From an uncultured Gemmatimonadota bacterium (GTDB lineage Bacteria; JAAXHH01), in the NCBI GenBank assembly GCA_951812955.1, contig OX638340.1:2720001-2784000 (forward strand): a DNA stretch of 64,000 nucleotides, in the 5' to 3' direction. The position numbers and the translations under genes are program-made. This document shows positions 7,421-55,566 of the stretch, piece after piece (position 1 is the stretch's first letter; each line of letters starts with the position of its first letter). The notes below the pieces were generated by a model. It made no database searches. It had not been told where the DNA came from and saw only the letters and a program-made list of their open reading frames with translations.

Positions 7421-8575
7421 TCAGGGTATGCTGGAAATCACTTCGAGGGCCCGTTCCACGTCGGACACCCGGTTGTACAAGTGGGGCGAGAATCGGATCA
7501 CGTCGCCGCGCAACGCGACCATGACGCCGGACTGCTTCAGATGCTTCGCCACGCTGGAGATGTCGTGGCCGGGAAAACGGGCGGTAACAATGGCCGAGCG
7601 TTCGGCGGCGTTCCGGGGGGAAGTGACCTCGGCGCCGATATCCGCCAGGCCGCTGATGAGGTGGTCGGCGAGGACCTGGTTATGGGCGAAGATCTCGTCG
7701 ATACCCGTGTCCACGAGGAATCCGATCGACTTCGCGAACCCGCCGGCCAACCCATAGGCCATGGTGCTGAACTCGAACCGGGACGCGTCCTCCGGGTAAT
7801 CCGGCGGATCGGTGCTGATGTCCCAGATGTCGACCTGGCTCCGAAAGCCCACCAGGCCGGGTTCGAGGCTCGTGGCGAGATGCGGAGCGAGGTACATGAC
7901 GGCGATACCGAAAGGACCGCACAGCCACTTGTATGCTCCGGCGGCAACGGCGTCGATGCCCATGCCGGGTGCGTCGATGGGGACGGCGCCCGCGGACTGC
8001 GTGGCGTCCACGACGAGCAGGGCTCCGTGCCGGTGCGCGATCTCGGCAAAAGCGGCGAGGTCCCAGCGCTGGCCGCTGCGGAATTCGACGTGGGACAGGG
8101 CCACTACGGCCGTGTTGTCGTCAATGAGGTCCCGGACGCGGCCGGGATCGACAGTACCTCCCCCCCGCGCGTGCGCCAGCCGGATCTCACAGCCCGTGTG
8201 GTTGGCGACCCGTCTCCAGGGGTAGACCGAAGCGGGGAAGGATACGTCCGTGCTGACGACGTTGGTTTCCGGTCCGGGCATGACCGCCCAGGCGAGGGAA
8301 CTCAGGAGCTCGGTGGTGCTGGACCCGGCGGCGATGTCGGTCGGCGACGCGTTGAAGAGCCGGGCGGCCTGCCGGTGCAACTCATCGAATACCGTGGCTT
8401 CGGCTTCTTCGTCGAAGTGGTTGCTGCCGTTCTCGGCGACGTCCCGGTACCATTCGGTGATCGCGGACGCGGCCGGACGGTACATGGGCGTTACGTTCGC
8501 CGCGTTGATGTAGGTGCAGGTCTGTGCTACGGGAAACTCATCGACCGGAACCAGCGGATCGAGGGACTGTGGCAT
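7421..8575 (-). CDS. Class V aminotransferase/desulfurase-family PLP enzyme.
   Basis: AGAYKWLCGPFGIAVMY places the PLP lysine in class-V context. Length is 384 aa. The large plus-strand ORF 7481..9835 has antisense composition. Confidence 0.75.
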   Translation of the reverse strand: MPQSLDPLVPVDEFPVAQTCTYINAANVTPMYRPAASAITEWYRDVAENGSNHFDEEAEATVFDELHRQAARLFNASPTDIAAGSSTTELLSSLAWAVMPGPETNVVSTDVSFPASVYPWRRVANHTGCEIRLAHARGGGTVDPGRVRDLIDDNTAVVALSHVEFRSGQRWDLAAFAEIAHRHGALLVVDATQSAGAVPIDAPGMGIDAVAAGAYKWLCGPFGIAVMYLAPHLATSLEPGLVGFRSQVDIWDISTDPPDYPEDASRFEFSTMAYGLAGGFAKSIGFLVDTGIDEIFAHNQVLADHLISGLADIGAEVTSPRNAAERSAIVTARFPGHDISSVAKHLKQSGVMVALRGDVIRFSPHLYNRVSDVERALEVISSIP

Positions 8576-8593
8576 GGTAAGGCCTCCCGGCGA

Positions 8594-9772
8594 TCAACCG
8601 GCGGCCGCGTCGCGCTCGTTCACTGTTCCCGCGTCCTCTTCCTCGGCGACCTGGCGGAGCAGGCTGGCAATCCGGCGCAGTCCCTCGTTCAGGTAGTCGG
8701 ACGGCAGGCCGTAGCTGATGCGGAGATGGTTAGGTATGCCGAAGTAGTCCCCTGGACCGATGAGCACCGACTTCTCCTGGATCAGTCGATTCGCCAGTGT
8801 CGCGGAATCGGCCTTCAGGTTGTACCGGACGAAGGAAACGGCCGTTGCCTGGGGCGGAACGAGACTCAGGATGTCCGAGTTGTCGCTGATCCAGCCGTGG
8901 TAGTTCTCCCATCCCCGCCGGATATAGCCCCGCGTCCTTTCGAAGATGGCCTGCCGCACGTCCGGGCGCAGCGCCAGCGGCGCGAGGAAATGGTTGGACA
9001 ACTTGGCGGTGCTCAAAGTCAGGTACTCGTGGCGCTTCCAAAGCTCCCTGAGCAGGTCTTCAGGACCCACGAGCCAGCCGATCCGCAGGCCGGGCATGCC
9101 GAAGGACTTGGACATGCTGCCCGCCGCGATGACCCGGTCGTACCGACCGTAGAAGGTGGGCGAAACCTCCTCCCGCTCCCGCTCGGACCCGGCGTAGATC
9201 TCGTCGGCGAGCAGGTAGGCGCCGCTGCGTTCGGCCGCGCGGACGACGGCGTCCATTTCGGATTCCGTCAGGATCTGCCCCGTCGGGTTGTTTGGGTTGC
9301 AGATGGAGATCAGTTTCGTTTCGTCAGATACGGCGGACTCCAGGCTGTCGGTATCGAGCGCCCATCCCCGGTCGGGATCGAGGGTGAACGTCCGGCGGAT
9401 GGCGCCCATGTTGTGCGCGAGCCCCCAACTCTGGAGGTAGCATGGCACCTGGACCGCCACCTCGCCCCCGCCTTCCAGCAGCGTCTGGAACGTGATGTAA
9501 TTGGCCTCGATGCATCCGATGGTCACCAGTACGTTATCGGCCGTGGCGCCGGGGTAGTACTGGGCAATGGCCTCCCGCAGTTCAGGCGAACCGTTGGCGT
9601 ATCCGTAGCCCAGTTCGGTATCCAGCATGCGGTCCAGGATATCGGGATCGTGGGCGATCAGTTCCCTGACCTTGACCGGGTGCGCGCCGCTCTCGGACAG
9701 GTTGTATTCCACGACCTGTTCCCAGTCCGACATGATGCGTTCCAGGTCAAAAGTCTGGAAGGTCGATGCCAT
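8594..9772 (-). CDS. Class I/II aminotransferase.
   Basis: SMSKSFGMPGLRIGW is the class-I aminotransferase PLP-lysine motif. ICNPNNPTG is the typical NPTG box. Confidence 0.8.
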   Translation of the reverse strand: MASTFQTFDLERIMSDWEQVVEYNLSESGAHPVKVRELIAHDPDILDRMLDTELGYGYANGSPELREAIAQYYPGATADNVLVTIGCIEANYITFQTLLEGGGEVAVQVPCYLQSWGLAHNMGAIRRTFTLDPDRGWALDTDSLESAVSDETKLISICNPNNPTGQILTESEMDAVVRAAERSGAYLLADEIYAGSEREREEVSPTFYGRYDRVIAAGSMSKSFGMPGLRIGWLVGPEDLLRELWKRHEYLTLSTAKLSNHFLAPLALRPDVRQAIFERTRGYIRRGWENYHGWISDNSDILSLVPPQATAVSFVRYNLKADSATLANRLIQEKSVLIGPGDYFGIPNHLRISYGLPSDYLNEGLRRIASLLRQVAEEEDAGTVNERDAAAG

Positions 9773-9927
9773 GTGCTTGCTCCTTGGTTTGATGGGCCGT
9801 CAGTGTTCGGTGCGCCGGCCATGTCGGCCTGCTAATCCGGTCAGCCTGGTCAGTGTGGCCGGCCAAGTCAGCCTGGCCGGCCGTGTCAGCCCGCCAGTCC
9901 GGCCGCTCGGTCATTCCGTCCGTCTGT

Positions 9928-10875
9928 CTACTTTACGGCGTGGTATACGGCCTTGGATATCTGGATATCCTGTACGGCGACGCCCGTCGAATCGGCGATC
10001 GTGATCTGGTCGTCGGAAGTGCGGCCGAGGGAAGGATTCTGAATCACGTTCCCGAGCTCGACCACCTTGTCCTCGGTTATGGCGCCCGCCATCATCGCCT
10101 GGGCGATCTCGCCCCGCAACCTGCACTGGGGGATGCTGTCCGCCACGACCACGTCGGCCTTTACGAGCACGCCTGGATCCAACTCGATCTTGTCCGGCGT
10201 ATCCGATCCCATGGCGGTGATGTGGGTCCCGGGCCGGACCTGCTCGGCGGTCAGCAGCGGCGACAGGGACGGGGTGGACATGATGATGAGATTGCTTGTC
10301 GCCGCCACCGCGCCGGCGTCATCCGTTGTCTCGACGGAGTATCCCTGGGCTTCCATGTCACGCATGTAGGACGCCTTGCTCTCGTCGGAACGTCCCCACG
10401 CGATCACGTCCGTGCAGTCGACGACACCCTTCAGGTACTCAACCTGCATGCGTGCCTGCAGGCCCGTACCGAAAACGCCGATGCGGCTGACGTTCTTCGG
10501 CGCGAGGACCTTGGCCACGACTGGCCCCATGGCGGCCGTACGTACGTTGGTGAGGTAGCCCTGGTCGAGCAGGAACGCCACCGGCTGGCCCGTTCTCTGA
10601 TTGAAGACCAGCATCATGCCCTGGACGCGGGGGAGGCCCACGTTCGGATTATCGCTGAAACCGGAGGCCAGCTTGATAACGTAATAGTCATCGTTGTTGA
10701 TCGCGCCGTACTTGATATGCACGTTCCCTGGAGGATCCTCGAAGTGCATCTCGCCGACGGGCGGCACCTGCACATTTCCCTGCGAATATGCGACGAAACC
10801 GTCCTCTATATCCTGAATGACGTCAATGCCCTCTACGGCTTCCTTGATTCGGTCCAGTTCGACGATGAGCGGCAT
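9928..10875 (-). CDS. Ornithine cyclodeaminase/mu-crystallin family NAD-dependent enzyme.
   Basis: 315 aa. The Rossmann segment IGVFGTGLQARMQVEYL and overall OCD-family layout are present. Co-directional with the upstream aminotransferases. Confidence 0.75.
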   Translation of the reverse strand: MPLIVELDRIKEAVEGIDVIQDIEDGFVAYSQGNVQVPPVGEMHFEDPPGNVHIKYGAINNDDYYVIKLASGFSDNPNVGLPRVQGMMLVFNQRTGQPVAFLLDQGYLTNVRTAAMGPVVAKVLAPKNVSRIGVFGTGLQARMQVEYLKGVVDCTDVIAWGRSDESKASYMRDMEAQGYSVETTDDAGAVAATSNLIIMSTPSLSPLLTAEQVRPGTHITAMGSDTPDKIELDPGVLVKADVVVADSIPQCRLRGEIAQAMMAGAITEDKVVELGNVIQNPSLGRTSDDQITIADSTGVAVQDIQISKAVYHAVK

Positions 10876-27657: not shown

Positions 27658-28869
27658 TCATTCGCGTATGATACCGCCTCCCAGGACCGTCTCGCCGTCG
27701 TAGAACACGACGGACTGTCCCGGTGTAACCGCCCGCTGAGGATATTCGAAAGCGACCTGCGCGACACCGGGCTCACAGGCCGTGATGACCGCGGGCGTTG
27801 CTTCCTGACGGTACCTGATCTTGGCCTGGCCGCGTACCTCGCCCACCGGGGTAACGGTGGACTGCCAGTTGACCCCGTCCGCGATGAGCCGGTCGCTGCG
27901 GAGATCCTCGTCCTCGCCCACCACGATCGTATTCGTATCGGGCTGGATGTCGACCACGTACACCGGATGTCCCGCGGCCAGGCCAAGTCCCTTCCGCTGT
28001 CCGATCGTGTAGAGCGGATGTCCCCGGTGTTCACCCAGGAAGCGGCCGTTCGTGTCCACGATCGGTCCCGGCCGTATGGGATCTTCAATGTCCAGCAGCC
28101 CTTCGTCCATTGTCACGGGGTGTTTCGCAGTCCACTCTTTGAGAAACCTCTCATGGCCCCTGTCCTGGATGAAGCAGATCTCGTAACTGTCCTTCTTGCC
28201 GGCCACCCGCGGTGCGAGACTTTCGGCGATATTCCGCGTCTGCGCCTTCGTGAGCATGCCGACGGGAAAGACGCTGCGCGCGAGCTCGTCCTGGGTCATC
28301 TCCCACAGGGCGTAGGATTGATCCTTATTTCCGTCCAGGCCCTGCTTCAGTACGTATCGGCCCGTGATTTCATCGATCGCCACCCGGGCATAGTGTCCGG
28401 TCGCCACGTAATCGGCGCCGAGCTCCGCGGCCCGGTCGAGCAGAACGCCGAACTTGACCTTGCTGTTGCAGGCCACGCAGGGATTGGGCGTGCGCCCCTG
28501 CATGTACTCGGACACGAAATTGGATATGACGCCCCGTTCGAACTCCTCGCGGAAATCCACCACGTAGTACGGGATATCGAGCCGGCCGGCCACAACCCGC
28601 GCGTCGTTCCGGTCCTCGACCGTGCAGCAGCCGTGCTCGAACCGCGCATTGCCGCCCACGCTGTCGTAGTCCCACAGGTGCATCGTGACGCCGATGACCT
28701 CGCAGCCGGCTTCCTTGAGCATCGCGGCCGCCACGGAGCTGTCCACGCCGCCGCTCATGGCCACCACGACCGTCGACCCTTTCGGCGGCAGCCGATTGAT
28801 GGACGGGTCGAAGGTTGATGCGGTGTCGAGTCCGCCGGGATCAGTAGGATTGGCGTTTGCCGGCTTCAT
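27658..28869 (-). CDS. mnmA: tRNA-specific 2-thiouridylase MnmA.
   Basis: PP-loop VVVAMSGGVDSSVAA, catalytic cysteines (NPCVACN..., CF) and full-length MnmA layout are present. ATG at 28867-28869 (MKPANAN). Confidence 0.9.
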   Translation of the reverse strand: MKPANANPTDPGGLDTASTFDPSINRLPPKGSTVVVAMSGGVDSSVAAAMLKEAGCEVIGVTMHLWDYDSVGGNARFEHGCCTVEDRNDARVVAGRLDIPYYVVDFREEFERGVISNFVSEYMQGRTPNPCVACNSKVKFGVLLDRAAELGADYVATGHYARVAIDEITGRYVLKQGLDGNKDQSYALWEMTQDELARSVFPVGMLTKAQTRNIAESLAPRVAGKKDSYEICFIQDRGHERFLKEWTAKHPVTMDEGLLDIEDPIRPGPIVDTNGRFLGEHRGHPLYTIGQRKGLGLAAGHPVYVVDIQPDTNTIVVGEDEDLRSDRLIADGVNWQSTVTPVGEVRGQAKIRYRQEATPAVITACEPGVAQVAFEYPQRAVTPGQSVVFYDGETVLGGGIIRE

Positions 28870-29254
28870 ATTCGTCTTTCGGGTTCGCGTCCTGACGGTT
28901 CCGGTAATCTTCGATTGCCGTCCGCACGCCGTCCGCGGCCATGGCGGAACAATGCATCTTGGTCGGCGGAAGTCCGCCCAGGGCATCTGCGATCGTTTTG
29001 TTTTCGATAGCTGCGGCCTGTTCGGTCGTCCTGCCGATCAACCATTCGGTGACCATGCTGCTTGCCGCAATAGAAGCGGCGCAGCCGAAGGTCCTGAACT
29101 TTGCGTCCGTGACGGTCCCGTCCGCGATCCGCAGATACAACGCAATGGTATTCCCGCTGATGGGGTTGCCCGCGTTGCCCACCCCGTCCGCGTCCGGCAG
29201 GTCTCCCACGTTGCGGGGAGAGCGAAAGTGATCCATCACGGTGGATGAGTACAT
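28841..29254 (-). CDS. iscU: IscU/NifU-like Fe-S scaffold homolog carrying a non-canonical first motif.
   Basis: Has the NifU_N layout with RNVG, GCAASIAASS and HCSAMAAD motifs. The canonical PACGD is replaced by PISGN (Cys to Ser, Asp to Asn), confirmed on the DNA (cccatcagcgggaat). Confidence 0.7.
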   Translation of the reverse strand: MYSSTVMDHFRSPRNVGDLPDADGVGNAGNPISGNTIALYLRIADGTVTDAKFRTFGCAASIAASSMVTEWLIGRTTEQAAAIENKTIADALGGLPPTKMHCSAMAADGVRTAIEDYRNRQDANPKDEYEAGKRQSY

Positions 29255-29264
29255 GAGACACGCC

Positions 29265-30437
29265 TTAACCGGGTACCTGCGCTGCGGAAACTTCTCGAAG
29301 GCGGGATACGATGCCGGGCAACCTGCTCATGACGTAGTCCACGTCCTCCATGGTATTGTCGTGCCCGAAGCTGAACCGGACCGAACCGAGTGCGGTGCGT
29401 GGGTCTCGGCCCAGCGCCAGCAACACGTGGGAAGGTTCGATGGCTCCCGATGTGCAGGCCGATCCGGTGGATACGGCAATTCCCGCGAGATCCAGGCTCA
29501 TGATCAGCGAATCGCCTTCCGCGCCGGAGAAGGAAACGTTCAACGTACCGGGCAGGCGCCGTTCCGGATGCCCGTTAATCCGCACGCCGTCGATCTCGAA
29601 CCGGATGCGCGCTTCCAGGGCGTCGCGCATCTCGGACAGATTCCGGAATTCGCGTTCCCGTTCTTCGGCGGCCAGTTCGGCGGCCTTGCCCAGCCCCACA
29701 ATGCCCACGGTGTTCTCCGTGCCTGATCGCACGTCGTTTTCGTGATGGCCGCCGTGGGCCGTGGGTTCGATCTCGACCCCATTGCGGATGTAGATGGCCC
29801 CCACGCCCTTGGGACCGTAGATCTTGTGGCCTGAAAGCGAAAGGAGGTCCGCATGCATCGCCTCCACGTCGACAGGCAGCTTGCCGGCGGACTGTACCGC
29901 GTCGGTGTGGAAGCACACGCCATTGTCCCGGGCGATCCTTCCGATTTCACCCACGGGCTGGACCGTGCCGATCTCATTGTTCGCGTGCATGATGCTGATG
30001 AGTATCGTATGGTCGGTCAGGGCGTCCGCCACCTGGCCGGGATCGATCCGGCCGTATTCGTCCACGGGAAGATAGGTCACTTCGAAGCCTTCCCGTTCGA
30101 GAAACCCGCAACTGTTCAGCACGGCCGAATGCTCTATATTCGTCGTGATAATGTGCCTGCCGAACGCCCTGCGGGTGTAGGCGATGCCCTTGAGCGCCAG
30201 GTTGTCGGACTCGGTGCCGCCGCTGGTGAAATAGATCTCACTGGGTCTTGCATTCACCAGGCCGGCTACCCGGGACCGCGCCTCTTCCACGGCAGAACGC
30301 GCCTCCTGTCCGTACCGGTGTATACTCGATGCATTGCCGAACCGGACTCTGAAGAACGGTTCCATCGCATCGTACACTTCGGGTCTGACCGGCGTGGTCG
30401 CGTTATGATCCAGATAGATGCTCGCCATGCAGATCAT
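29265..30437 (-). CDS. iscS: Cysteine desulfurase (NifS/IscS family).
   Basis: SLSGHKIYGPKGVGAIY is the PLP-lysine motif and SGSACTS the active-site cysteine loop. ATG at 30435-30437. Confidence 0.9.
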   Translation of the reverse strand: MICMASIYLDHNATTPVRPEVYDAMEPFFRVRFGNASSIHRYGQEARSAVEEARSRVAGLVNARPSEIYFTSGGTESDNLALKGIAYTRRAFGRHIITTNIEHSAVLNSCGFLEREGFEVTYLPVDEYGRIDPGQVADALTDHTILISIMHANNEIGTVQPVGEIGRIARDNGVCFHTDAVQSAGKLPVDVEAMHADLLSLSGHKIYGPKGVGAIYIRNGVEIEPTAHGGHHENDVRSGTENTVGIVGLGKAAELAAEEREREFRNLSEMRDALEARIRFEIDGVRINGHPERRLPGTLNVSFSGAEGDSLIMSLDLAGIAVSTGSACTSGAIEPSHVLLALGRDPRTALGSVRFSFGHDNTMEDVDYVMSRLPGIVSRLREVSAAQVPG

Positions 30438-30548: not shown

Positions 30549-30621
30549 AAATGTCAAGCGTTATCGGGGTTTCACGGCATTCGCGCATTCGGGGAATGCT
30601 TACCGTCATCGCTTGACATTT
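30549..30621. promoter_or_regulatory. 12-bp perfect inverted repeat (aaatgtcaagcg ... cgcttgacattt) forming a pair of divergent TTGACA-N17-TAnTTT promoter-like elements between iscS(-) and the lipoprotein gene(+).
   Basis: Read directly. Each arm carries TTGACA followed 17 nt later by TAGTTT (plus strand) or TAATTT (minus strand). Confidence 0.35.
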
Positions 30622-44823: not shown

Positions 44824-45273
44824 TTATCCTGAATGATTGGCATTCCCCATGAATATCATACGATGCTCGAGAATCAACTTCCGACGTATGGGTTTGCCGG
44901 GTGAATAGCTCAGATACCCCCCGAAGCCTCTTTCTCTTGCGTACACGTGCGCGACGGGTTGGAATTGTGCTCGATACACACTGTAATAGAACACCATTTG
45001 AATGGGACGGATCAGTCTGACCAACAAACTGGCCTTGATTGTGCGTCGAGGGAAATGTACGTCGCCGTCGTCATTGGTTGTCCTATCCTGGCTGCTATAG
45101 GTTTTTTCAAGGGCGAAGTGCCGCCAATACTGGTGTACGTCAACACCTTTCAGCGGGTAACCGTCCCTGTCGAACACAGTAACGCTCCAGGCAGGTACTA
45201 CGGTGGACTCTACAGGATAGCCTATTACAACTGCTGTGACAAGAATGATCACTGTCACAAAGTATTTGCGCAT
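44824..45273 (-). CDS. Hypothetical membrane-anchored/secreted protein.
   Basis: MRKYFVTVIILVTAVVIGYP signal anchor. Overlaps the upstream MauE-like gene by 19 nt. First gene of a lower-GC segment. Confidence 0.4.
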   Translation of the reverse strand: MRKYFVTVIILVTAVVIGYPVESTVVPAWSVTVFDRDGYPLKGVDVHQYWRHFALEKTYSSQDRTTNDDGDVHFPRRTIKASLLVRLIRPIQMVFYYSVYRAQFQPVAHVYARERGFGGYLSYSPGKPIRRKLILEHRMIFMGNANHSG

Positions 45274-45731
45274 TTAAACGCCTCCCTTATTGAAAATGGA
45301 ACGTGACGCGCGTAGACAAGACTTGAAGCGGCCGCCAATATGAACGTATTCCGAACCAGCACTTCGGCAATGGAGACGTTTCTTAAGTCATCGCCTAATC
45401 CGAAACAACCGCACGGCAGGTCTGCCCCGTAATACAGCCCCCAGGCCAGCGCGCCCATAAAGGACAACATCAGCAGCACAACGATCATCGCGCTATATCG
45501 GATCCATACCCCAATCACGAGACATAAACCGGTTGAGATTTCGATCCAGGGCAACGCAAGGGCGAAAGGGACTGCCAGCGGCTCGGGTACAATGTCATAC
45601 GACCGCACGATCTGCGCGAAGAGTTCGAGCTCCGGCATCTTGGCCAACCCTGCCCAGATAAAGATACCCCCTACCACTAAACGCAGCGCCAGGAGACCGA
45701 AGGGAACTATACGATCGTGTCCGCTTGCCAT
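45255..45731 (-). CDS. MauE/DoxX-like polytopic membrane protein with a CGCFG motif.
   Basis: Four hydrophobic helices. LPCGCFGLGD resembles the conserved Cys pair of the MauE (methylamine utilisation)/DoxX-like families. Confidence 0.5.
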   Translation of the reverse strand: MASGHDRIVPFGLLALRLVVGGIFIWAGLAKMPELELFAQIVRSYDIVPEPLAVPFALALPWIEISTGLCLVIGVWIRYSAMIVVLLMLSFMGALAWGLYYGADLPCGCFGLGDDLRNVSIAEVLVRNTFILAAASSLVYARHVPFSIREAFKCANTL

Positions 45732-45755
45732 GATTCATTTACCCCCGATGCATTT

Positions 45756-46844
45756 CTACAATGTGTCGAGAGGTTGCCTGAGCGTGTATGTCACTACGGC
45801 GGGATTGGATGACTCGTCGGCGGGTTCCACCAACATGTACAGACGATCTTCCCGTGTGAAGAGCGCGTCCGGACCTCCCATGAAATCCGGCATCTGGAGA
45901 CTGCTCGCGATCTGGTTCAGATCGGCATCGTACAGATCCATGAAGACGCGGGACCCTTGCGGGTCGGCGAATACTGCGCCCAGCCACCGATCGCCGATTC
46001 TAAGGAGTTGATAGAACTGGCTCCATGAACGCATATACTCCTGCCGTTTCCGCATGTCGTCCAGGACCATCGCGTCGGGCGGGTCCCGCGGAGGCACGTA
46101 GAAGGGCGATCGACCCTGCGCGGTTTTCACGAGTTCGCCATCGGGCGTGTATTTCCTCACGGTATATTCGTACGGGGTCGCGACGTAGAGAAACCGCCCG
46201 ACCGATACAATCCCTCCACCCCGTGAAGCCGCGGCGACATTGTAGTTCTCGGACTGAGGGGCGAATTCATTGAGCGTATCGCCCTGATCGTTCAATTCGT
46301 GCACCACGTGAATTGCGCCGCTGGTATTCACGTATCCGAAAACCCGACCCTCGGCAGTTACGTGTATATCTTCCAATCGCGGCGAAGGCGAGAAGCTGTT
46401 CCTGAAAACATAGTCGTTCCCGTAGATTGAAATGCGTGACAGCGTCATGTCGTAAAGTAAAAAAACTCCATCTCGCGTAGCCGCCAATGCAAGGGGATAG
46501 CGATACTCGCCGGGACCATCGCCCGGAGCGCCGAGGTGTTTTTTGCCTCGTCCCTTCCCATCGAATACGTCGACGCGAGTGGTAACGAAGTCCAGCACGA
46601 TGCAATCACCGTTGGACGCCACGGCGCCGATCTTGGGCAAAGGACCGAGCAGGAACTCATCGCTCGAATCGAGATTGATCCTCGATTCCACCCGGTAGAC
46701 ATCGTCGAATGTCAACGGTCGCTCCTGGCTCGCGCATGCCAACGGTCCGCACAGTCCGCATAGTATGAACAGCGCAATGGCAGAACGCGAAGCGGGACAC
46801 CATCTTGTAACGGGTGTAAAGGAACTGAGGTTTTTCGTGCTCAC
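45756..46844 (-). CDS. Beta-propeller (NHL/6-bladed-type) lipoprotein, paralog 1.
   Basis: Signal plus lipobox (LCGLCGPLACAS). Repeating beta-strand blocks. 35-40 percent identical by eye to 47566..48717 (e.g. GGGIVSVGRFLYVATPYEYTVRKYTPDGELVKT versus GGGILLLGSHLYVITPYEYELRKYDLGGKLIRT). Confidence 0.6.
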   Translation of the reverse strand: MSTKNLSSFTPVTRWCPASRSAIALFILCGLCGPLACASQERPLTFDDVYRVESRINLDSSDEFLLGPLPKIGAVASNGDCIVLDFVTTRVDVFDGKGRGKKHLGAPGDGPGEYRYPLALAATRDGVFLLYDMTLSRISIYGNDYVFRNSFSPSPRLEDIHVTAEGRVFGYVNTSGAIHVVHELNDQGDTLNEFAPQSENYNVAAASRGGGIVSVGRFLYVATPYEYTVRKYTPDGELVKTAQGRSPFYVPPRDPPDAMVLDDMRKRQEYMRSWSQFYQLLRIGDRWLGAVFADPQGSRVFMDLYDADLNQIASSLQMPDFMGGPDALFTREDRLYMLVEPADESSNPAVVTYTLRQPLDTL

Positions 46845-46889
46845 GGTGCGTATCCTTTCTATGTCGCGTTGTGCTTCGCCGTCGTGGAA

Positions 46890-47531
46890 TCAACCTTGTG
46901 CCGCGATGGTATTGATGTAGACGCCAAGCTTCTCATAGAAAGTGACGGTTCCCTGTTCGTCCTGATAATCCGAGTAATTCGCCAGTAGAACTCGATTGTC
47001 ACGTCCCAGAAACACGATCAAGGGGTATCTGTTGTAATCGAACCTCTTTAACAGATGTGATTCGGCGTCCATTACGGCAACGTCTTGAATCCGGTATTGT
47101 TTCAGATGAGAGAGAAAATGGGTCTCTTGAAAATCGGAAAAAACCATAATGGCGTCTATGTTTCTTTCCCTCAAGCGACTACGATACTCGTTGAACAACC
47201 GAAGCTCCATGTCCAGACAGCGGTTGCAGTTCGTTCCCGCAAAATGGTAGATCAGCTTATAACCGCCCGTATCCGAAAACAGGTCTCTGAACCTGGTGTT
47301 GGCGCGCTGCAATCGAGCTAGATCCGGTCCCAGACCAGCGCCTTCAAGCGCATGTTCATGGATGGTCAATTGTTCGCCTATGCTCATGGTCACCTTGTTC
47401 TTCCACGTGCCGTTTTCGGCGGTTAACTCCGATACTCTTTGGAACAGCACGATATTCAATGTGAGCAAGGAAACAATTCCGGCTAAAAGCCATTTTCGAG
47501 GTATGTCGAGACTAACCGCATTCGATGACAT
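46890..47531 (-). CDS. Membrane-anchored thioredoxin-fold protein with a CNRC (CxxC) motif (TlpA/MauD-like).
   Basis: N-terminal TM (LLAGIVSLLTLNIVLF) followed by a thioredoxin-like beta-alpha-beta core around HFAGTNCNRC. Confidence 0.5.
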   Translation of the reverse strand: MSSNAVSLDIPRKWLLAGIVSLLTLNIVLFQRVSELTAENGTWKNKVTMSIGEQLTIHEHALEGAGLGPDLARLQRANTRFRDLFSDTGGYKLIYHFAGTNCNRCLDMELRLFNEYRSRLRERNIDAIMVFSDFQETHFLSHLKQYRIQDVAVMDAESHLLKRFDYNRYPLIVFLGRDNRVLLANYSDYQDEQGTVTFYEKLGVYINTIAAQG

Positions 47532-47565
47532 GCGGACACCTCCTACGGGCTTTACTGTAATACGC

Positions 47566-48717
47566 TTAACCCGATGATTTGAGTTCGTAGACGACTACAG
47601 TTGGATTGGGCAGATTCTTAACGTCCTGCGACAACACGACGGGTGCTTCTGAACGCAGCAGATAGAGTCGGTCACCCCTGGAGACGATCCCCTGCGAACC
47701 ACCGCCAATGTGCTCGGGCAATTGCAGGTCGCCGGTAACGTAATTGAGATCTGTGTCGTAGAGATCCAAAAACACGCGACGCTCATTTGGTTCGGCCAGG
47801 ACCACTCCTATCATCTCGTCTCCTATCTTCAACAGTTGTCTTATGTGGCTCCACGTGGCGTGGTACGCTTGTCGTTTGCGGAGATCGCTCGAAATTTCGT
47901 GCTCATCAAAGTCTGTCGAAGGCGGCACATAGTGCGACGATCTGCCCCGTACCGTTCGAATCAGTTTTCCACCAAGATCGTACTTCCGAAGTTCGTACTC
48001 ATAGGGGGTGATTACATAAAGGTGTGAACCAAGCAGCAAGATACCTCCCCCTCTGGATTCTCCCACGGTACTGAACTCCTCGTATTGATCGGCGAAACTG
48101 TTCTTGATCTCTCCTGACCTAGTGCACTCGTAGACTACCCTATCGGCCCCCTTCCTGCTAGCGACACCACTCGTATAGCAAAAGAAGCGATCGTCGGCTG
48201 TCACGATAATCTGACCCAGGAAAAGAGGAAGATCGACACTGCTGTTGAACGTAAAATCTTCGCTGTACTCCTGGATTCGCAGAAGATCTCCATCGTATAC
48301 GTAGTACCTGTGTGTTTGATCGCTATAGTAAAGGTTATCGGGGTAGAGGTATTGGTCCGCATTCGTCCCAAGACTTCCAATCTTCGCCTTGCTTCCGCCC
48401 TTGGAGTCGAATACAAGTATCTGTCGAACCCCGAAGTTATCCAACACAATGAAATCGCCCTGTTCGTTTATCGCGCTGAACCAGGGCAAAGCGCTCAGCG
48501 TGAAGCCCGAATCATTGGCAAGCGGGATCTGACGTATTTCTGTATACACTTCCAAGAAAGACTGTTTATCTCCATAGGAATCGGCGAGATGAGCAATGGA
48601 TGTATTGCGGGCTTCTTCCATCGAACCATGAGTACTCTGACACGCCATTGCTCCCATGAAAAACACCATTAGCGAAAAGGACAGCAACCGTAGCGTTTCA
48701 TTCGTTCGCTCTGACAT
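47566..48717 (-). CDS. Beta-propeller (NHL/6-bladed-type) lipoprotein, paralog 2.
   Basis: RBS aggaggg before the ATG. Signal plus lipobox (FFMGAMACQS). Paralogous to 45756..46844. Confidence 0.6.
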   Translation of the reverse strand: MSERTNETLRLLSFSLMVFFMGAMACQSTHGSMEEARNTSIAHLADSYGDKQSFLEVYTEIRQIPLANDSGFTLSALPWFSAINEQGDFIVLDNFGVRQILVFDSKGGSKAKIGSLGTNADQYLYPDNLYYSDQTHRYYVYDGDLLRIQEYSEDFTFNSSVDLPLFLGQIIVTADDRFFCYTSGVASRKGADRVVYECTRSGEIKNSFADQYEEFSTVGESRGGGILLLGSHLYVITPYEYELRKYDLGGKLIRTVRGRSSHYVPPSTDFDEHEISSDLRKRQAYHATWSHIRQLLKIGDEMIGVVLAEPNERRVFLDLYDTDLNYVTGDLQLPEHIGGGSQGIVSRGDRLYLLRSEAPVVLSQDVKNLPNPTVVVYELKSSG

Positions 48718-49170
48718 GGTTGGATTCCCTCCTCATTAGCTTGCCTTTAACAGTACAACCGGAAAGTGCTCGCTTCTTAAGTTGACGCTTATCGTGAATC
48801 GAACCACCACAATCCTATCGGTCAGGCTTGACTACGCTCAAGGCCAGGTATGAGCGCTAAATGGAGAACAATGATGAGATGTCGAGGGCTGGCAGTGGTA
48901 CACGTTATTTGCTACATGTACCCAATTGTATACTTGATTGGCTCCTGCCGGCTCCGTGGACAACGCCAGCATGCTCATTGCGCCGGCCATCGTCAATGCA
49001 CCGACGAACATTACACGAGTGAAGATGCTTCTGATTGAAGTTTTGATGACCGTGCTCCTTTCATTGTGCCTTTCCGGTTGTACTGTGCAATGAATAAAAT
49101 GACACCTGACCGATAGTCATCAACAGATACATATTGGAAGTGGAAACGGCTGGATATTTAGGGTAAAACC

Positions 49171-49692
49171 CTACACCTCCATAATCTCCACCAGTTCGTC
49201 TTCAGGATACGGGAAATGCCCCTGGGTACCCCGGTTGACCCGGGCCATGCGCTCCCCGAACACCATGTCTTCTCTGATCAATTCCGAAGTCCTGTGAATG
49301 CACTCCAACGTTGGGATTCCTCCTGTCGCGATCGCTGCTTCGGCTTCCTCCAGAAGAGCCGTCATGTCGTAAAACATCTTGATATTCGGCGACAGCATCT
49401 TGCGAGCCTGTTCCGGCAGTGAGGCGCGTAACTCCAGACAGAGATCGAGGGCTTTCAGAAGATGTTCCCTCGCGATTCGAAAGCACTTCCGTGCTTTACT
49501 CAGTGAAGCGCGATACGGCAGGATATTTCCCGCCAGGCAGGCGCCCAGATCTTCTATTTCCTCCAGGGCGCCAAGTCCCATGAAATAGTGGCCCCATCCC
49601 GTAAGTGTGAGCGGATAGATCCGGTGTTCGAAGGCTTCTTTGAGCTCCACATTGTCTGGCATCGGCGGAAGTGGGCAGGTCCAATCAGACAT
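49171..49692 (-). CDS. Hypothetical cytoplasmic protein (173 aa).
   Basis: Protein-like composition. Co-directional with the regulator genes. No recognisable motif. Confidence 0.4.
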   Translation of the reverse strand: MSDWTCPLPPMPDNVELKEAFEHRIYPLTLTGWGHYFMGLGALEEIEDLGACLAGNILPYRASLSKARKCFRIAREHLLKALDLCLELRASLPEQARKMLSPNIKMFYDMTALLEEAEAAIATGGIPTLECIHRTSELIREDMVFGERMARVNRGTQGHFPYPEDELVEIMEV

Positions 49693-49790
49693 TGTAGGCC
49701 TCCTTCAGTACATCAATTGGTGAAGAGACTCGCGGAGATGGAACACTGGAACGATCTACCCATTAAAGAAAGGAAAGCCGGACCGGTTAT

Positions 49791-49809
49791 CTATAGGGTG
49801 TATCCCTAT
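49791..49809. promoter_or_regulatory. Palindromic box ATAGGGTGTATCCCTAT (candidate LuxR/NarL-family operator), copy 1.
   Basis: Inverted-repeat arms ATAGGG/CCCTAT, about 100 bp upstream of the 49692 start codon. Confidence 0.35.
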
Positions 49810-49890
49810 TTGCTCGTTTTTTTTCACCGGAATCGAAAAAACCTGATTCCGGTCTTGAAGGAGTAGAGCGTCTCCTTTAAACGAACGTGT

Positions 49891-50526
49891 TCATTCTTCC
49901 ATTTTGATCAGACCAAGTTTGATCGCCGCTCGGATCAGATCGGGAAGGCTGTGCGTGTCTAGTTTCGCCATCAGATTTATGCGATGATTCTGCACGGTTT
50001 TTATACTGATTCGCATGGTTTCGGCTATCTGGCGATTGGATCGCCCCGATACGATCAGTCGAAGGATTTCGCGCTCACGGGGAGTAAGCCGGGGCGGTGT
50101 GCCATGGGGGTACTCCTCATACAGGTAATCGGCATGATCCATGGCCCGGGATTGGTACGTAACGCCCCTGCAAACGGTGCGTATCGCTTTGACCAACTCT
50201 TCGCCCGCTGATTTCTTGAGCACGTAGCCCCTGGCGCCGTTGTCCAGCGCTTTCCGGATCAGTGCGGGATCGGAATGCATCGACAGCATGACCACCCGGA
50301 CCTCGGAAAACGACGCGCGAATCCGCCTCGTCGCTTCGATACCGTTGATACCGGGCATCTCGACGTCCATCACTATGACGTCCGTTCGGACTCGATGCAC
50401 GGCATCGATCGCCTCCCGGCCATCCACGGCCTCGGCGACTATTCGAATATCGGACTCTTTTTCGAGCAGGTCCCGCAGCCCCTGCCGAATCAGATGATGA
50501 TCGTCTGCAATCACTACGCGTATCAT
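49891..50526 (-). CDS. LuxR/NarL-family response regulator (REC + HTH).
   Basis: Starts MIRVVIADDH. Phospho-acceptor context VIVMDVEMPG. The C-terminal HTH LTPREREILRLIVSGRSNRQIAETMRISIKTVQNHR is present. Confidence 0.85.
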   Translation of the reverse strand: MIRVVIADDHHLIRQGLRDLLEKESDIRIVAEAVDGREAIDAVHRVRTDVIVMDVEMPGINGIEATRRIRASFSEVRVVMLSMHSDPALIRKALDNGARGYVLKKSAGEELVKAIRTVCRGVTYQSRAMDHADYLYEEYPHGTPPRLTPREREILRLIVSGRSNRQIAETMRISIKTVQNHRINLMAKLDTHSLPDLIRAAIKLGLIKMEE

Positions 50527-50610
50527 ATGATGTTCGCGATCTCCTCTTCTGGTCGTTACATGACGAAATCCGTCGTTTGCTCAATACTAACAACAAAAAG
50601 GGGGACTATC

Positions 50611-50630
50611 CATAGGGTGTTTCCCTATGT
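50611..50630. promoter_or_regulatory. Palindromic box CATAGGGTGTTTCCCTATG (candidate LuxR/NarL-family operator), copy 2.
   Basis: Same ATAGGG-N5-CCCTAT architecture as copy 1, about 90 bp upstream of the response-regulator start at 50526. Confidence 0.35.
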
Positions 50631-50722
50631 TCCGCTTTTTCTTACGGTATTGGGGGGCTGAAGTGGCGAGAGAGATAGACTGCGGCCAACCGGATTGCTA
50701 CCAAGCGGGGAAAGACGACGGT

Positions 50723-51376
50723 TCATTCATCCAGGAAAGCGAGACGGTGCTTGAGGGCCAGGAGTATGAGATCCGGCAGATTGTGGACTTTCAACTTCTT
50801 CATCAGGATCGCGCGGTGTTTTTCCACGGTCTTGTCGCTGATGTTCAGGACCTCCGCCGCGGCCTGATTGGTATGTCCCTCGACGATGAGCTGAAGTATC
50901 TCCCGTTCGCGGGATGAAAGCTGCTCCAGAACGGCCTTTGACTCATTCGCCGATTCCGTCTGCAGGAATCCCGATAGCACGGTTTGAGCAATCGAAGGTG
51001 AAAGATAGATTTCGCCCTTGTTGGCGGACCGGATGGCGATCAGGAGTTCCTCCACGACGGATCTCTTGAGGAGATACCCGCTGGCCCCGCATCTGAGCGC
51101 CTGGCGCACCACGTCCTCATCCGAATGCATGGATAGTATGACGACGCGGGTATCGACGGACAGCGTCTGAATCCGCCGCGTGGTCTCGATACCGTTCAGC
51201 AAAGGCATGGCGATATCCAACATGGCGACGTCCGGTCTCTTCCGTTGTACCAGGTTCAGGGTCTCGTGACCATCGGCCGCTTCGCCGACAACTTCCATAT
51301 CCTCGGCCTTTTCGATTAGAGACACGATGCTTTGACGGACCAGTTGGTGATCGTCGGCAATAACGATCCTGATCAT
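50723..51376 (-). CDS. LuxR/NarL-family response regulator (REC + HTH), second copy.
   Basis: Starts MIRIVIADDH. Contains VAMLDIAMPL and the HTH SSREREILQLIVEGHTNQAAAEVLNISDKTVEKHR. Its start overlaps the kinase stop (ATGA). Confidence 0.85.
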   Translation of the reverse strand: MIRIVIADDHQLVRQSIVSLIEKAEDMEVVGEAADGHETLNLVQRKRPDVAMLDIAMPLLNGIETTRRIQTLSVDTRVVILSMHSDEDVVRQALRCGASGYLLKRSVVEELLIAIRSANKGEIYLSPSIAQTVLSGFLQTESANESKAVLEQLSSREREILQLIVEGHTNQAAAEVLNISDKTVEKHRAILMKKLKVHNLPDLILLALKHRLAFLDE

Positions 51377-54087: not shown

Positions 54088-54307
54088 GTCAACATACAGA
54101 TTGCTTTTCGAGAAGCATCCTGAAGCAATTTCGGAAAACAGGTGGACTTGACTCAACAAGCAAGTTTACTCGATCCAGGCCCGATACACCACCGGCGGTT
54201 TTCCCCGATCTCTGTACGACGACATGACCGCTTACATACAGCGGCCGGAACAGTGGCGTCACGTTCATGGGGTCGGTACGAGGTCGGGGCATGTCAGGGA
54301 AGGGATA

Positions 54308-54703
54308 TTAGCCGTCCGGTTCGGCGACATAGGTGTAGAGGATCGTTCCATCCCGGTCAAGCTGGAAGACCTCGTACCGCTTGGAGGGCGAGTATAGAAT
54401 ACGGCCATCAGGTGTTTGCGACAGATGGTTAAAGTTGGTTCGCACAGGTATGGTTGGTTTGCCGCCTATCACGAACTTACCGATTCCGTAACGAAGATTA
54501 CCGCCCATTTCGTAAACGGCGAAAATCGGTTCGTCCCATACGGAATTCACGGCGATCTCTCCGTCGTTCCCGGCCAGGATTCCGCTGGGAGGCAACAGAT
54601 TCTCGATGCGAAAATCCGAGAGGTGCGCGCCGTTCATCGTAAAGACCGTAATACGATTGTTTCCCGAGTCAAGAACAATGACTTTCTCATTGGATATGGC
54701 CAC
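54308..54703 (-). pseudogene. Truncated NHL-type beta-propeller gene fragment (decayed paralog).
   Basis: The 131-aa ORF has NHL-like blocks (VIVLDSGNNRITVF). Its upstream continuation (DADGRFFLADDRHHTIWVVESSG) is in a different frame at 54760-54840, so it is frameshifted. Confidence 0.5.
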
Positions 54704-54889
54704 ACCTAGAGGTCGATTCAGCTCTCCGGGACCAGACCTCCCATACTATTCCGATGAGAAACCGCCCCTGATGATTCGACCACCCAGATCGTGTGATGCC
54801 GGTCGTCAGCCAGAAAGAAACGGCCATCCGCGTCCATGTTTTCATGATGTCTGTGACCGATAGTATCTGGGCATTGGGCGGATAGTTAA

Positions 54890-55566
54890 GCTTGCCGTAA
54901 CCTGGGGCAATCGGCCTCGTAAGTCGCGATGACGGTACCGTCCCACTTCATTCTGAATACGGGGTATTCCTTGACCGCAGAATATAGAATATGACCCTCA
55001 GGCGTCTGGTTGAAATGCTGATCGCCCTGGTCCTATCCAACAGTCTGGTCTGGCACTCTTTCACCTCGGCTTCCTACAACGCTACCACACAAATCGTAGA
55101 CCGTAAAAAGTGTTTGCCCCCAGAGAGAATTGACCGCGATCTGGCCGTTCTTGCTCGCCAGTATTCCGGATGTCATTTGAAATTCCAACCGGAAGTCGTC
55201 TAAATACATACCATCCATCTTGAATATCATTACCCGGCTATTGCCGGAATCGTTCACGATGACTTTGTTTTCAAATACAGCTGCTCCTCCTGGACGCAGC
55301 AGTTCACCGGGGCCGGCCCCGTCCCGGCCAATGCGGCTGATCAGTTTGCCCTCTGAGTCACAAATCCAGACTGTATTCTGCTGCCCGTCCGTCAGGTAAA
55401 ACCGGCCGTCGTTGTCCCGTATCAGGTCTCCGATTTTTCCAGCAATCTCATCTTCAAGATCCAGCGGAATTGCACTGACTTTCTCGACTGCGAATGGCTG
55501 GGCATTTGCGGAACCCAAAAGTAACCACCATGATACAGGTTGATACAACCATGATAAGAACGGCAA
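54890..55566 (-). pseudogene. Second decayed NHL-type beta-propeller gene (frameshifted near 55033).
   Basis: The 177-aa ORF 55033..55566 (signal-like N-terminus, VIVNDSGNSRVMIF) stops where its paralog continues. The matching C-terminal peptide (TPEGHILYSAVKEYPVFRMKWDGTVIATY) is encoded in another frame at 54900-55030. Confidence 0.5.

What the first reader, a model, noticed from the sequence alone, without database searches (positions are those of the whole stretch)
28841..29254. IscU-like scaffold lacking the first conserved cluster-ligand cysteine (PACGD to PISGN)
In an otherwise canonical iscS-iscU-mnmA operon, the IscU homolog has Ser in place of the first conserved Cys and Asn in place of the adjacent Asp. 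It keeps the second Cys and the His-Cys pair. In canonical IscU the two lost residues both contribute to the assembly site. This variant may bind clusters differently, or it may be a sulfur-relay partner dedicated to MnmA-mediated tRNA thiolation rather than a general Fe-S scaffold.
Basis: partly seen in the sequence, partly recalled or inferred. Interest (0 to 1): 0.5.

Follow-up and report, generated by a model that had tools for sequence, protein, structure and literature searches.

The report
IscU-like protein missing two cluster ligands
A small protein that normally serves as the workbench for building iron-sulfur clusters has lost two of its metal-holding residues in a whole lineage of uncultured bacteria, always sits between a sulfur-mobilising enzyme and a tRNA-thiolating enzyme, and has probably been repurposed for sulfur delivery, though no experiment has tested this.

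Summary
ORF 28841-29254 (-) is a 137-aa NifU_N/IscU-fold protein with GNPISGN in place of GNPxCGD (E. coli Cys37->Ser, Asp39->Asn). It keeps Cys63, His105 and Cys106.

It is not a sequencing error or a decaying gene:
- 41 of the 120 best homologue clusters and 26 species-level genomes carry the same Ser/Asn + Asn signature. The genomes are MAGs labelled Gemmatimonadota, Latescibacterota or Zixibacteria.
- Median dN/dS is 0.11.
- About ten further clade-specific substitutions accompany the two changes.

In all 26 genomes the gene lies between a NifS-type cysteine desulfurase and a 'C-type' (CC-CxxC-C) MnmA. That MnmA type needed a [4Fe-4S] cluster in the one enzyme tested.

The nearest canonical (Cys/Asp) relative sits in the same syntenic locus, so the ligands were lost in place in an existing nifS-nifU-mnmA operon.

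The two lost residues are half of the Fe/Zn entry site of ISCU. The persulfide-receptor cysteine is kept.

Best reading (about 0.45): a scaffold turned into a sulfur-relay partner for s2U34 synthesis, in parallel to SufU. The main rival is an altered scaffold or cluster donor.

I could not check whether the same genome has SUF. I found no description in the literature. It is a new variant of a known kind.

The parts
29265..30428 (-). nifS/misS: class I cysteine desulfurase. The conserved start MASIYLDH gives 387 aa. The open frame runs on to a TTG at 30557.
   Evidence: TIGR03402 NifS 534 bits (cut-off 530.75); IscS models are below their cut-offs. Pfam Aminotran_5. The catalytic SACTSG loop is present. 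The homologue in L062 is also 387 aa.
28841..29254 (-). Variant IscU/MisU-like gene (137 aa), 10 nt after the nifS stop codon.
   Evidence: Pfam NifU_N 142 bits. Best NCBIfam model is TIGR03419 at 164 bits, below the 187.9 cut-off. AF2 model pLDDT 91.5 with an IscU fold, TM 0.82-0.88 to 7C8M and 4EB5.
29150..29158 (-). Codons Ser33-Gly34-Asn35 (AGC GGG AAT), replacing the Cys-Gly-Asp of canonical IscU (Ec Cys37, Asp39).
   Evidence: Read directly from the sequence. The same AGY/AAY + AAY codons occur in 26 other genomes. Alignment columns.
29081..29083 (-). Retained Cys58 (Ec Cys63).
   Evidence: Invariant in 42 of 42 variant sequences.
28949..28954 (-). Retained His101-Cys102 (Ec His105-Cys106). 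Cys106 corresponds to the persulfide-receptor cysteine of ISCU.
   Evidence: Codons CAT TGT read. His is kept in 42 of 42 and Cys in 41 of 42 variant sequences. The receptor role is taken from PMC8924461.
27658..28872 (-). mnmA: tRNA 2-thiouridine(34) synthase, C-type (HGCCT, PNPCVACN, EICF). The likely start overlaps the 3' end of the variant gene by 32 nt.
   Evidence: NF001138 424 bits (cut-off 284). The CC-CxxC-C motif is present in all 27 variant loci. Motif definition from PMC7025502. N-terminal region.

Best explanation
The gene is the in-place descendant of a MisU/NifU-type Fe-S scaffold. It has lost the canonical assembly site and now works only inside the NifS-MnmA pathway that makes 2-thiouridine at tRNA position 34.

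Proposed steps:
1. NifS makes a persulfide from cysteine (inferred from family membership).
2. The variant still docks on NifS through the unchanged IscU surface (Tyr3, His10, Pro14-Gly18, Lys103 in E. coli numbering). It takes the sulfur on Cys102 (Ec Cys106), helped by Cys58 and His101, in a pocket that is now polar rather than metal-binding (Ser/Asn33, Asn35, new Ser61 and Thr98). This step is inferred.
3. The sulfur passes to the C-type MnmA, probably to the free iron site of its [4Fe-4S] cluster, and from there to adenylated U34. This is inferred from the Thermus enzyme.

General Fe-S cluster supply would then come from another system, most likely SUF. I did not verify that.

This would parallel the conversion of SufU from scaffold to sulfurtransferase, but by loss of ligands rather than by tight zinc binding.
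For: - Conservation. The signature occurs in 41 of the 120 best homologue clusters and in 26 species genomes, with no intermediates. Median dN/dS is 0.11.
- Site residues. Cys63, His105 and Cys106 are kept in 42/42, 42/42 and 41/42 variant sequences. No new conserved cysteine appears.
- Rest of the protein. Every other residue that is invariant in canonical relatives is kept (Thr60 in 36 of 42), including the N-terminal Tyr3 and the PRNVG stretch. The fold is predicted intact.
- Gene context. All 26 variant loci are nifS-variant-mnmA, and every MnmA has CC-CxxC-C.
- Orthology. The closest canonical proteins are P0048 and P0098. P0098 lies in a locus syntenic with the window and with variant locus L062: nifS-nifU-mnmA-Peptidase_MA_2-LpxL-...-heptosyltransferase. 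The change therefore occurred in an existing mnmA-linked operon.
- What was lost. In ISCU the Fe(II)/Zn(II) site is Cys35, Asp37, Cys61 and His103, and Cys104 is the unbound persulfide receptor (PMC8924461). The variant has lost two of the four metal ligands and kept the receptor.
- Pocket remodelling. Position 37 tolerates Ser or Asn, which are poor metal ligands. Other clade-specific changes lie next to the remaining site residues: G64A, A66S, T69A, V102T.
- Precedents. SufU, an IscU relative, is a dedicated sulfurtransferase, and B. subtilis YrvO-MnmA is a dedicated desulfurase-MnmA pair (PMC13066941). About 60 clusters of NifU_N domains that also lack the first Cys are fused to ThiF/MoeB-type sulfur-carrier-activating enzymes.
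Against: - No experiment exists for this protein.
- Keeping both cysteines and the histidine is more than a simple persulfide carrier needs. It would equally fit a three-ligand metal or cluster site completed by the NifS cysteine or by a second subunit.
- In mammalian ISCU, efficient persulfide transfer to Cys104 depends on metal in the very site that is damaged here (PMC8924461).
- Thermus MnmA accepted sulfur directly from IscS or SufS in vitro, so a relay is not strictly needed (PMC7025502).
- I could not show that these genomes have SUF or any other scaffold. None is in the 64-kb window.
- Monophyly of the clade is recovered in 147 of 200 bootstraps with the two diagnostic columns masked, but only 39 of 200 when all signature columns are masked.
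Confidence: 0.45

Rival explanations
1. It is still an Fe-S scaffold or cluster donor, with altered ligation. A cluster would be held by Cys58, His101 and Cys102 plus the NifS active-site cysteine or a second subunit. It would be used to build or repair the [4Fe-4S] cluster of the neighbouring C-type MnmA, or even to serve the whole cell.
For: - Cys63, His105 and Cys106 are all conserved, more than one acceptor cysteine would require.
- The partner MnmA has the cluster-binding CC-CxxC-C motif in 27 of 27 loci, and that MnmA type needs a [4Fe-4S] cluster (PMC7025502).
- From my memory of the paper on the closest solved structure (4EB5, A. fulgidus IscS-IscU; matched), the desulfurase cysteine serves there as a cluster ligand. 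I did not check this here.
- The review notes that B. subtilis NifS presumably assembles the NadA cluster in situ.
- No second Fe-S system could be shown.
Against: - Two of the four ligands of the Fe(II) entry site used for de novo assembly are gone.
- The replacement at position 37 alternates between Ser and Asn, which argues against a ligand role.
- No compensating cysteine appears in the variant or, consistently, in NifS. The extra NifS Cys at trimmed position 172 is in only 21 of 26.
- From memory (not checked here), substitutions of Cys37 or Asp39 abolish IscU function in Azotobacter.
Confidence: 0.3
2. It is a non-catalytic adaptor or regulator. It keeps the IscU surface that binds and modulates NifS, and may bridge NifS to MnmA, but carries neither sulfur nor metal.
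For: - The NifS-binding surface residues are invariant.
- The gene is translationally coupled to mnmA: a 32-nt overlap in the window and tight spacing in other loci.
- NifS of the clade carries its own fixed substitutions near the active-site loop. In E. coli IscS numbering these are H350L and L333I, present in 26 of 26 variant loci.
Against: A pure adaptor would not need Cys58, His101 and Cys102, which are kept in 41-42 of 42 sequences under strong purifying selection.
Confidence: 0.1
3. It is an artefact or a decaying gene: a sequencing or assembly error at the codon, or a scaffold gene under relaxed selection.
For: None beyond the unusual residues themselves. One homologue cluster (P0028) also lacks the last cysteine.
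Against: - The same codons occur in 26 independent assemblies, including closed 3.7-4.0 Mb chromosomes.
- Median dN/dS is 0.11.
- 37 columns are invariant across sequences down to 55% identity.
- The predicted fold is intact.
Confidence: 0.02

Closest known systems
MisU / 'clostridial-type' NifU (NCBIfam TIGR03419), the one-domain U-type scaffold of the minimal MIS system (MisS-MisU)
   Same: Best-scoring family. 50-60% identity to canonical members. Same length and predicted fold. Same pairing with a NifS/MisS desulfurase. Orthologous locus shared with a canonical member.
   Different: Lacks Cys37 and Asp39. Carries about ten further fixed substitutions. Scores 148-170 bits against a cut-off of 187.9, whereas a typical canonical member scores 212. 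Always followed by mnmA.
SufU (zinc-dependent sulfurtransferase of the SUF system)
   Same: An IscU-fold protein derived from a scaffold that now only relays persulfide sulfur from its desulfurase (PMC13066941). This is what I propose the variant works like.
   Different: SufU keeps all three cysteines and the aspartate as zinc ligands, and uses the first cysteine (Cys41), the one missing here, as sulfur acceptor. It pairs with SufS, not NifS. The variant scores 66.8 against a SufU cut-off of 92.5, and only over residues 1-86.
IscU of the ISC system (E. coli IscU, human ISCU)
   Same: Fold; second and third cysteines; His105; LPPxK motif; N-terminal desulfurase-binding residues.
   Different: Below the TIGR01999 cut-off (129 vs 192). 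No hscBA, fdx or iscR next to it. Two of the four Fe/Zn-site ligands are absent.
YrvO-MnmA of Bacillus subtilis and IscS-TusA-TusBCD-TusE-MnmA of E. coli (sulfur supply to MnmA)
   Same: A dedicated desulfurase encoded next to mnmA (YrvO). Small carrier proteins between desulfurase and MnmA (Tus).
   Different: Neither pathway uses an IscU-fold protein. Both serve D-type MnmA, whereas the MnmA here is C-type.

Membership tests
Pfam NifU_N (PF01592) domain | Profile score above the gathering cut-off over the full domain | tested here: met
   142.4 bits against a cut-off of 22, residues 1-122.
U-type Fe-S scaffold (IscU/MisU/NifU N-domain) | Three conserved cluster-ligand cysteines (Ec Cys37, Cys63, Cys106) | tested here: not met
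   Cys37 is Ser here, and Ser or Asn across the clade. Cys63 and Cys106 are present.
U-type Fe-S scaffold (IscU/MisU/NifU N-domain) | Conserved Asp39, a ligand of the Fe/Zn entry site that modulates cluster lability | tested here: not met
   Asn in 42 of 42 variant sequences, Asp in 80 of 80 canonical ones. Role taken from PMC8924461.
U-type Fe-S scaffold (IscU/MisU/NifU N-domain) | IscU fold and a His105-Cys106 pair at the start of the C-terminal helix | tested here: met
   pLDDT 91.5. TM 0.82-0.88 and rmsd 1.7-1.8 A to 7C8M/7CNV. KMHCS motif present.
U-type Fe-S scaffold (IscU/MisU/NifU N-domain) | Assembles and transfers Fe-S clusters | not testable with these tools
   Needs anaerobic reconstitution and spectroscopy.
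NCBIfam TIGR03419 (NifU_clost equivalog) | Score at or above the curated cut-off of 187.9 | tested here: not met
   Window protein 164.4. Other variants 148-170. Canonical sisters 177-181. A typical canonical member 212.
NCBIfam TIGR01999 (IscU) / ISC system | Score at or above 192.4, and an isc context (iscR, hscBA, fdx) | tested here: not met
   129.3 bits. The neighbours are nifS, mnmA, a Peptidase_MA_2 protein and an unannotated divergent gene.
SufU (TIGR01994) | Score at or above 92.5; zinc site of three Cys plus Asp; SufS partner | tested here: not met
   66.8 bits over residues 1-86 only. The first Cys and the Asp are absent. The partner is NifS-type. No sufB, sufC or sufD in the window.
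MIS (minimal Isc-like system: MisS + MisU only) | A class I NifS-like desulfurase adjacent to a one-domain U-type protein, with no chaperones or carriers | tested here: met
   NifS TIGR03402 at 534 bits, above the 530.75 cut-off. Gene order nifS-U. System definition.
C-type (Fe-S-dependent) MnmA | CC-CxxC-C cysteine motifs in an MnmA equivalog | tested here: met
   NF001138 at 424 bits (cut-off 284). HGCCT, PNPCVACN and EICF are present in all 27 variant loci. Motif definition from PMC7025502. Cluster binding itself was not tested.

The most novel reading that the evidence does not exclude
This clade is a second, independent conversion of a U-type Fe-S scaffold into a persulfide carrier. It came about by deleting the metal site instead of locking it with zinc as in SufU. 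Together with the NifU_N-ThiF fusions, which also lack the first cysteine, it points to an unrecognised class of 'IscU-fold sulfur carriers'. These would dock on class I desulfurases and feed thiolation enzymes, here a [4Fe-4S] MnmA.
Probability: 0.35. Interest if true: 0.7.

Novelty: new variant of a known kind. Interest (0 to 1): 0.55.

Why it matters
Annotation pipelines name these proteins 'iron-sulfur cluster assembly scaffold protein'. A genome survey would therefore count them as a working MIS/ISC machinery. If they are sulfur-relay partners of MnmA, such counts are wrong for this lineage.

The case would also show, caught next to a canonical orthologue in the same locus, how a scaffold becomes a sulfurtransferase. 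That is the step proposed for the origin of SufU.

It also gives a natural double mutant (Cys37Ser/Asn, Asp39Asn). With it one could ask two things: whether IscU can accept a persulfide on Cys106 without the metal site, and how C-type Fe-S-dependent MnmA enzymes get their sulfur, which the Thermus study left open.

Tried and rejected
- Second Fe-S system. tblastn of E. coli SufA/B/C/D/S/E and of the window's own IscU, NifS and MnmA against the 64-kb window found no sufB or sufD and no second NifU_N. It found only an unrelated class-V aminotransferase (7421-8575) and a MalK-type ABC ATPase. The genome-wide check was not possible.
- Literature. Five searches found nothing on an IscU or MisU lacking the first cysteine. 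One of them was wasted on prefix matches to 'miss' and 'misuse'.
- Structure. The AF2 model confirms the fold, but its coordinates are not exposed. I could not measure whether the clade-specific substitutions cluster around the site.
- Phylogeny. The first attempt timed out. A numpy neighbour-joining run gave moderate support only.
- Regulation. The promoter and terminator scan of 26.4-31.0 kb was no better than shuffled sequence. Rfam and tRNA scans of the window were empty.
- Exact look-up of the window protein found no record.
- Rejected: sequencing error, pseudogene, SufU membership, canonical ISC membership.

Full report
**What is in the sequence**

The ORF at 28841..29254 on the minus strand (ATG start, 137 aa) is a full-length NifU_N domain (Pfam 142 bits, residues 1-122).
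- Its loop reads G-N-P-I-S-G-N where relatives read G-N-P-x-C-G-D.
- The codons are AGC (29156-29158) and AAT (29150-29152).
- Against E. coli IscU these are Cys37->Ser and Asp39->Asn.
- Cys63, His105 and Cys106 are present as Cys58, His101 and Cys102.

Ten nucleotides upstream ends a NifS-type cysteine desulfurase. It scores 534 bits on TIGR03402, just above the cut-off, and the IscS models fail. Downstream is mnmA (NF001138, 424 bits), and its likely start overlaps the 3' end of the variant gene by 32 nt.

**Error or decay is excluded**

- Among the 120 best homologue clusters, 41 carry Ser or Asn at the first position together with Asn at the second. The other 79 carry Cys and Asp. There are no intermediates.
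- A scan of one genome per species found 26 genomes with the variant. Several are closed chromosomes of 3.7-4.0 Mb.
- Their codons are AGY or AAY at the first position and AAY at the second. This fits single-step changes TGY->AGY->AAY and GAY->AAY.
- Pairwise dN/dS over 124 ungapped codons has median 0.11 and maximum 0.28 (285 pairs).
- 37 columns are invariant across variant sequences down to 55% identity.
- An AlphaFold2 model built on the clade alignment has mean pLDDT 91.5. It superposes on solved IscU structures with TM 0.82-0.88.

**The change is a package**

Besides the two ligand positions, about ten positions are fixed differently in the clade. In E. coli numbering they are N13S, V32A, I45L, G64A, A66S, T69A, V102T, L109M, A113G and L114V.
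- Several lie beside the remaining site residues: G-C-A-A-S-I-A-A instead of G-C-G-A-A-I-A-T, and LPPTK instead of LPPVK.
- Every other residue that is invariant in canonical relatives is kept (Thr60 in 36 of 42). This includes Tyr3, His10 and the PRNVG stretch. From general knowledge of the IscS-IscU complex, these form the desulfurase-binding face.
- No new conserved cysteine appears.
- The partner NifS also has clade-fixed substitutions near its catalytic loop. In E. coli IscS numbering these are H350L (26 of 26; canonical partners have His in 28 of 32 and Gln in the sister) and L333I (26 of 26 against 0 of 32).
- Because the clade probably has one origin, these count as one evolutionary event, not 26.

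**Context and origin**

- All 26 variant loci have the order nifS-variant-mnmA. Among the 33 canonical loci examined, only L030, L054 and L060 have mnmA downstream.
- Every variant-linked MnmA has the CC-CxxC-C pattern (HGCCT, PNPCV[A/S]CN, E[I/V]CF). That pattern defines C-type MnmA. The Thermus member needs an oxygen-labile [4Fe-4S] cluster (PMC7025502).
- A neighbour-joining tree with the two diagnostic columns masked recovers the variants as one group in 147 of 200 bootstraps. With all signature columns masked it recovers them in only 39 of 200, so resolution is limited.
- The nearest canonical proteins are P0048 and P0098.
- P0098, from a Latescibacteria MAG, lies in a locus with the order nifS-nifU(Cys/Asp)-mnmA-Peptidase_MA_2-lipid A acyltransferase-x-heptosyltransferase. 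The window has the same order, and so does the distant Asn/Asn variant P0039.
- The ligands were therefore lost in place, in an orthologous gene of an operon already linked to mnmA.
- Submitters label the genomes Gemmatimonadota, Latescibacterota or Zixibacteria. Different labels are attached to proteins 85-94% identical, so the phylum names are unreliable.

**What the lost and kept residues mean**

In mammalian ISCU the Fe(II)/Zn(II) site used to start assembly is formed by Cys35, Asp37, Cys61 and His103. Cys104 stays unbound and receives the persulfide (PMC8924461).
- The variant has lost the first two and kept the other three.
- The first position alternates between Ser and Asn, neither a usual ligand for iron or zinc. 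The pocket has also gained Ser and Thr.
- I read this as loss of the canonical assembly site, with the desulfurase-docking face and the sulfur-accepting cysteine retained.

The IscU fold has a precedent for such a conversion. SufU is now regarded as a dedicated sulfurtransferase that probably descends from a MisU-like scaffold (PMC13066941).

A side result points the same way. A profile search of 1.8 billion representatives found NifU_N domains with Asp in place of the first Cys and no His105. They are fused to ThiF/MoeB-type adenylyltransferases in Acetobacterium, Alkalicella and other Bacillota. In A. wieringae the gene sits among Cys/Met-metabolism PLP enzymes. This is suggestive only.

**Most likely mechanism, and how sure**

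I put about 0.45 on a dedicated sulfur relay: NifS persulfide -> Cys102 of the variant -> C-type MnmA -> s2U34. General Fe-S supply would come from another system.
- The gene order, the conservation and the residue pattern are shown.
- Every chemical step is inferred.

The main rival (about 0.3) is an altered scaffold or cluster donor.
- Conserving both cysteines and the histidine is more than a carrier needs.
- MnmA needs a cluster.
- From my memory of the A. fulgidus IscS-IscU structure (4EB5), not checked here, the desulfurase cysteine can act as a fourth ligand.
- I could not show a second Fe-S system.

Points that weaken the relay idea:
- Persulfide transfer to ISCU depends on metal in the site that is damaged here.
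- Thermus MnmA takes sulfur directly from desulfurases in vitro.

A pure adaptor role (about 0.1) does not explain the conserved Cys/His/Cys. An artefact is excluded.

**Comparison with known families**

The protein belongs to the NifU_N superfamily and is closest to the MisU / clostridial-type NifU group.
- It fails that family's curated cut-off: 164 against 187.9. A typical member scores 212, the canonical sisters 177-181, and other variants 148-170.
- It fails two defining ligand features.
- It is not SufU (66.8 against 92.5, partial match, wrong residues, wrong partner).
- It is not ISC-type IscU (129 against 192.4, no isc context).
- I therefore file it as a new variant of a known kind: it may work like SufU without being a member.

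Five literature searches found no description of it. The library is limited to open-access papers.

**Limits**

The key check for SUF elsewhere in the genome could not be run. The literature states that most bacteria have one system, usually SUF (PMC11559095). That is only a prior.

Noticed in passing
Proteins P0196, P0220, P0277, P0281, P0222, P0292, P0335 (loci L064, L065); not in the window: About 60 homologue clusters in Acetobacterium, Alkalicella, Tissierellales and other Bacillota fuse an N-terminal NifU_N domain to a C-terminal ThiF/MoeB-type adenylyltransferase. The NifU_N domain has the motif GNPxDGD: the first Cys is replaced by Asp, His105 by Leu/Thr/Ser/Asp, and Cys63 and Cys106 are kept. 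In A. wieringae the gene lies among Cys/Met PLP enzymes, a PALP enzyme and homoserine O-acyltransferase. This may be an IscU-fold persulfide-carrier module taking the place of a rhodanese domain.
   Followed up: partly
Proteins P0140 (472 aa) and P0141 (482 aa); not in the window: These proteins contain three tandem NifU_N domains. Cys37 is Arg and Asp39 is Gly (motif G-x-A-S-R-G-G), while Cys63, His105 and Cys106 are mostly kept. They were the top hits to the variant-clade profile.
   Followed up: no
window 29265-30428 (-), NifS residues Leu347 and Ile330 counted from MASIYLD: The partner desulfurase carries clade-fixed substitutions next to its active-site loop. In E. coli IscS numbering these are His350->Leu (26/26; canonical partners mostly His, sister lineage Gln) and Leu333->Ile (26/26 vs 0/32). 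I do not know of a role for these positions.
   Followed up: partly
window 28770-28872 (-), N-terminus of MnmA; also L001-L029, L060: MnmA of this lineage has a 15-40 residue N-terminal extension before the PP-loop. It ends in a conserved D-P-x-x-N-R-L-P-P-x-G segment, which is also present in the canonical sister. In the window it overlaps the 3' end of the variant gene by 32 nt.
   Followed up: partly
Protein P0028 (cluster of 33 member sequences): One variant cluster reads M-H-G-S instead of M-H-C-S, so it also lacks the Cys106 equivalent. It comes from a 1.5-kb contig. It could be an error or a further degenerate copy.
   Followed up: no
window 44824-55566: This stretch has lower third-position GC (0.54-0.66 against 0.72-0.86 elsewhere). 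It encodes three DUF5128/NHL six-bladed beta-propeller paralogues, a MauE/DoxX membrane protein, a PDZ-containing histidine kinase (928 aa) and a LuxR-type response regulator. It may have been acquired horizontally.
   Followed up: partly
window 7421-10875 (-): A second class-V aminotransferase (with a kynureninase-like C-terminus) lies next to a class I/II aminotransferase and an ornithine cyclodeaminase/mu-crystallin gene. It is not in an Fe-S context and is only 25% identical to the window's NifS.
   Followed up: partly
Loci L001-L023, L055 (record titles): Genomes whose variant proteins are 85-94% identical are labelled Gemmatimonadetes by some submitters and Candidatus Latescibacterota by others, and one cluster member is labelled Zixibacteria. 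The phylum assignment of this largely sponge- and marine-derived lineage is inconsistent in public records.
   Followed up: no
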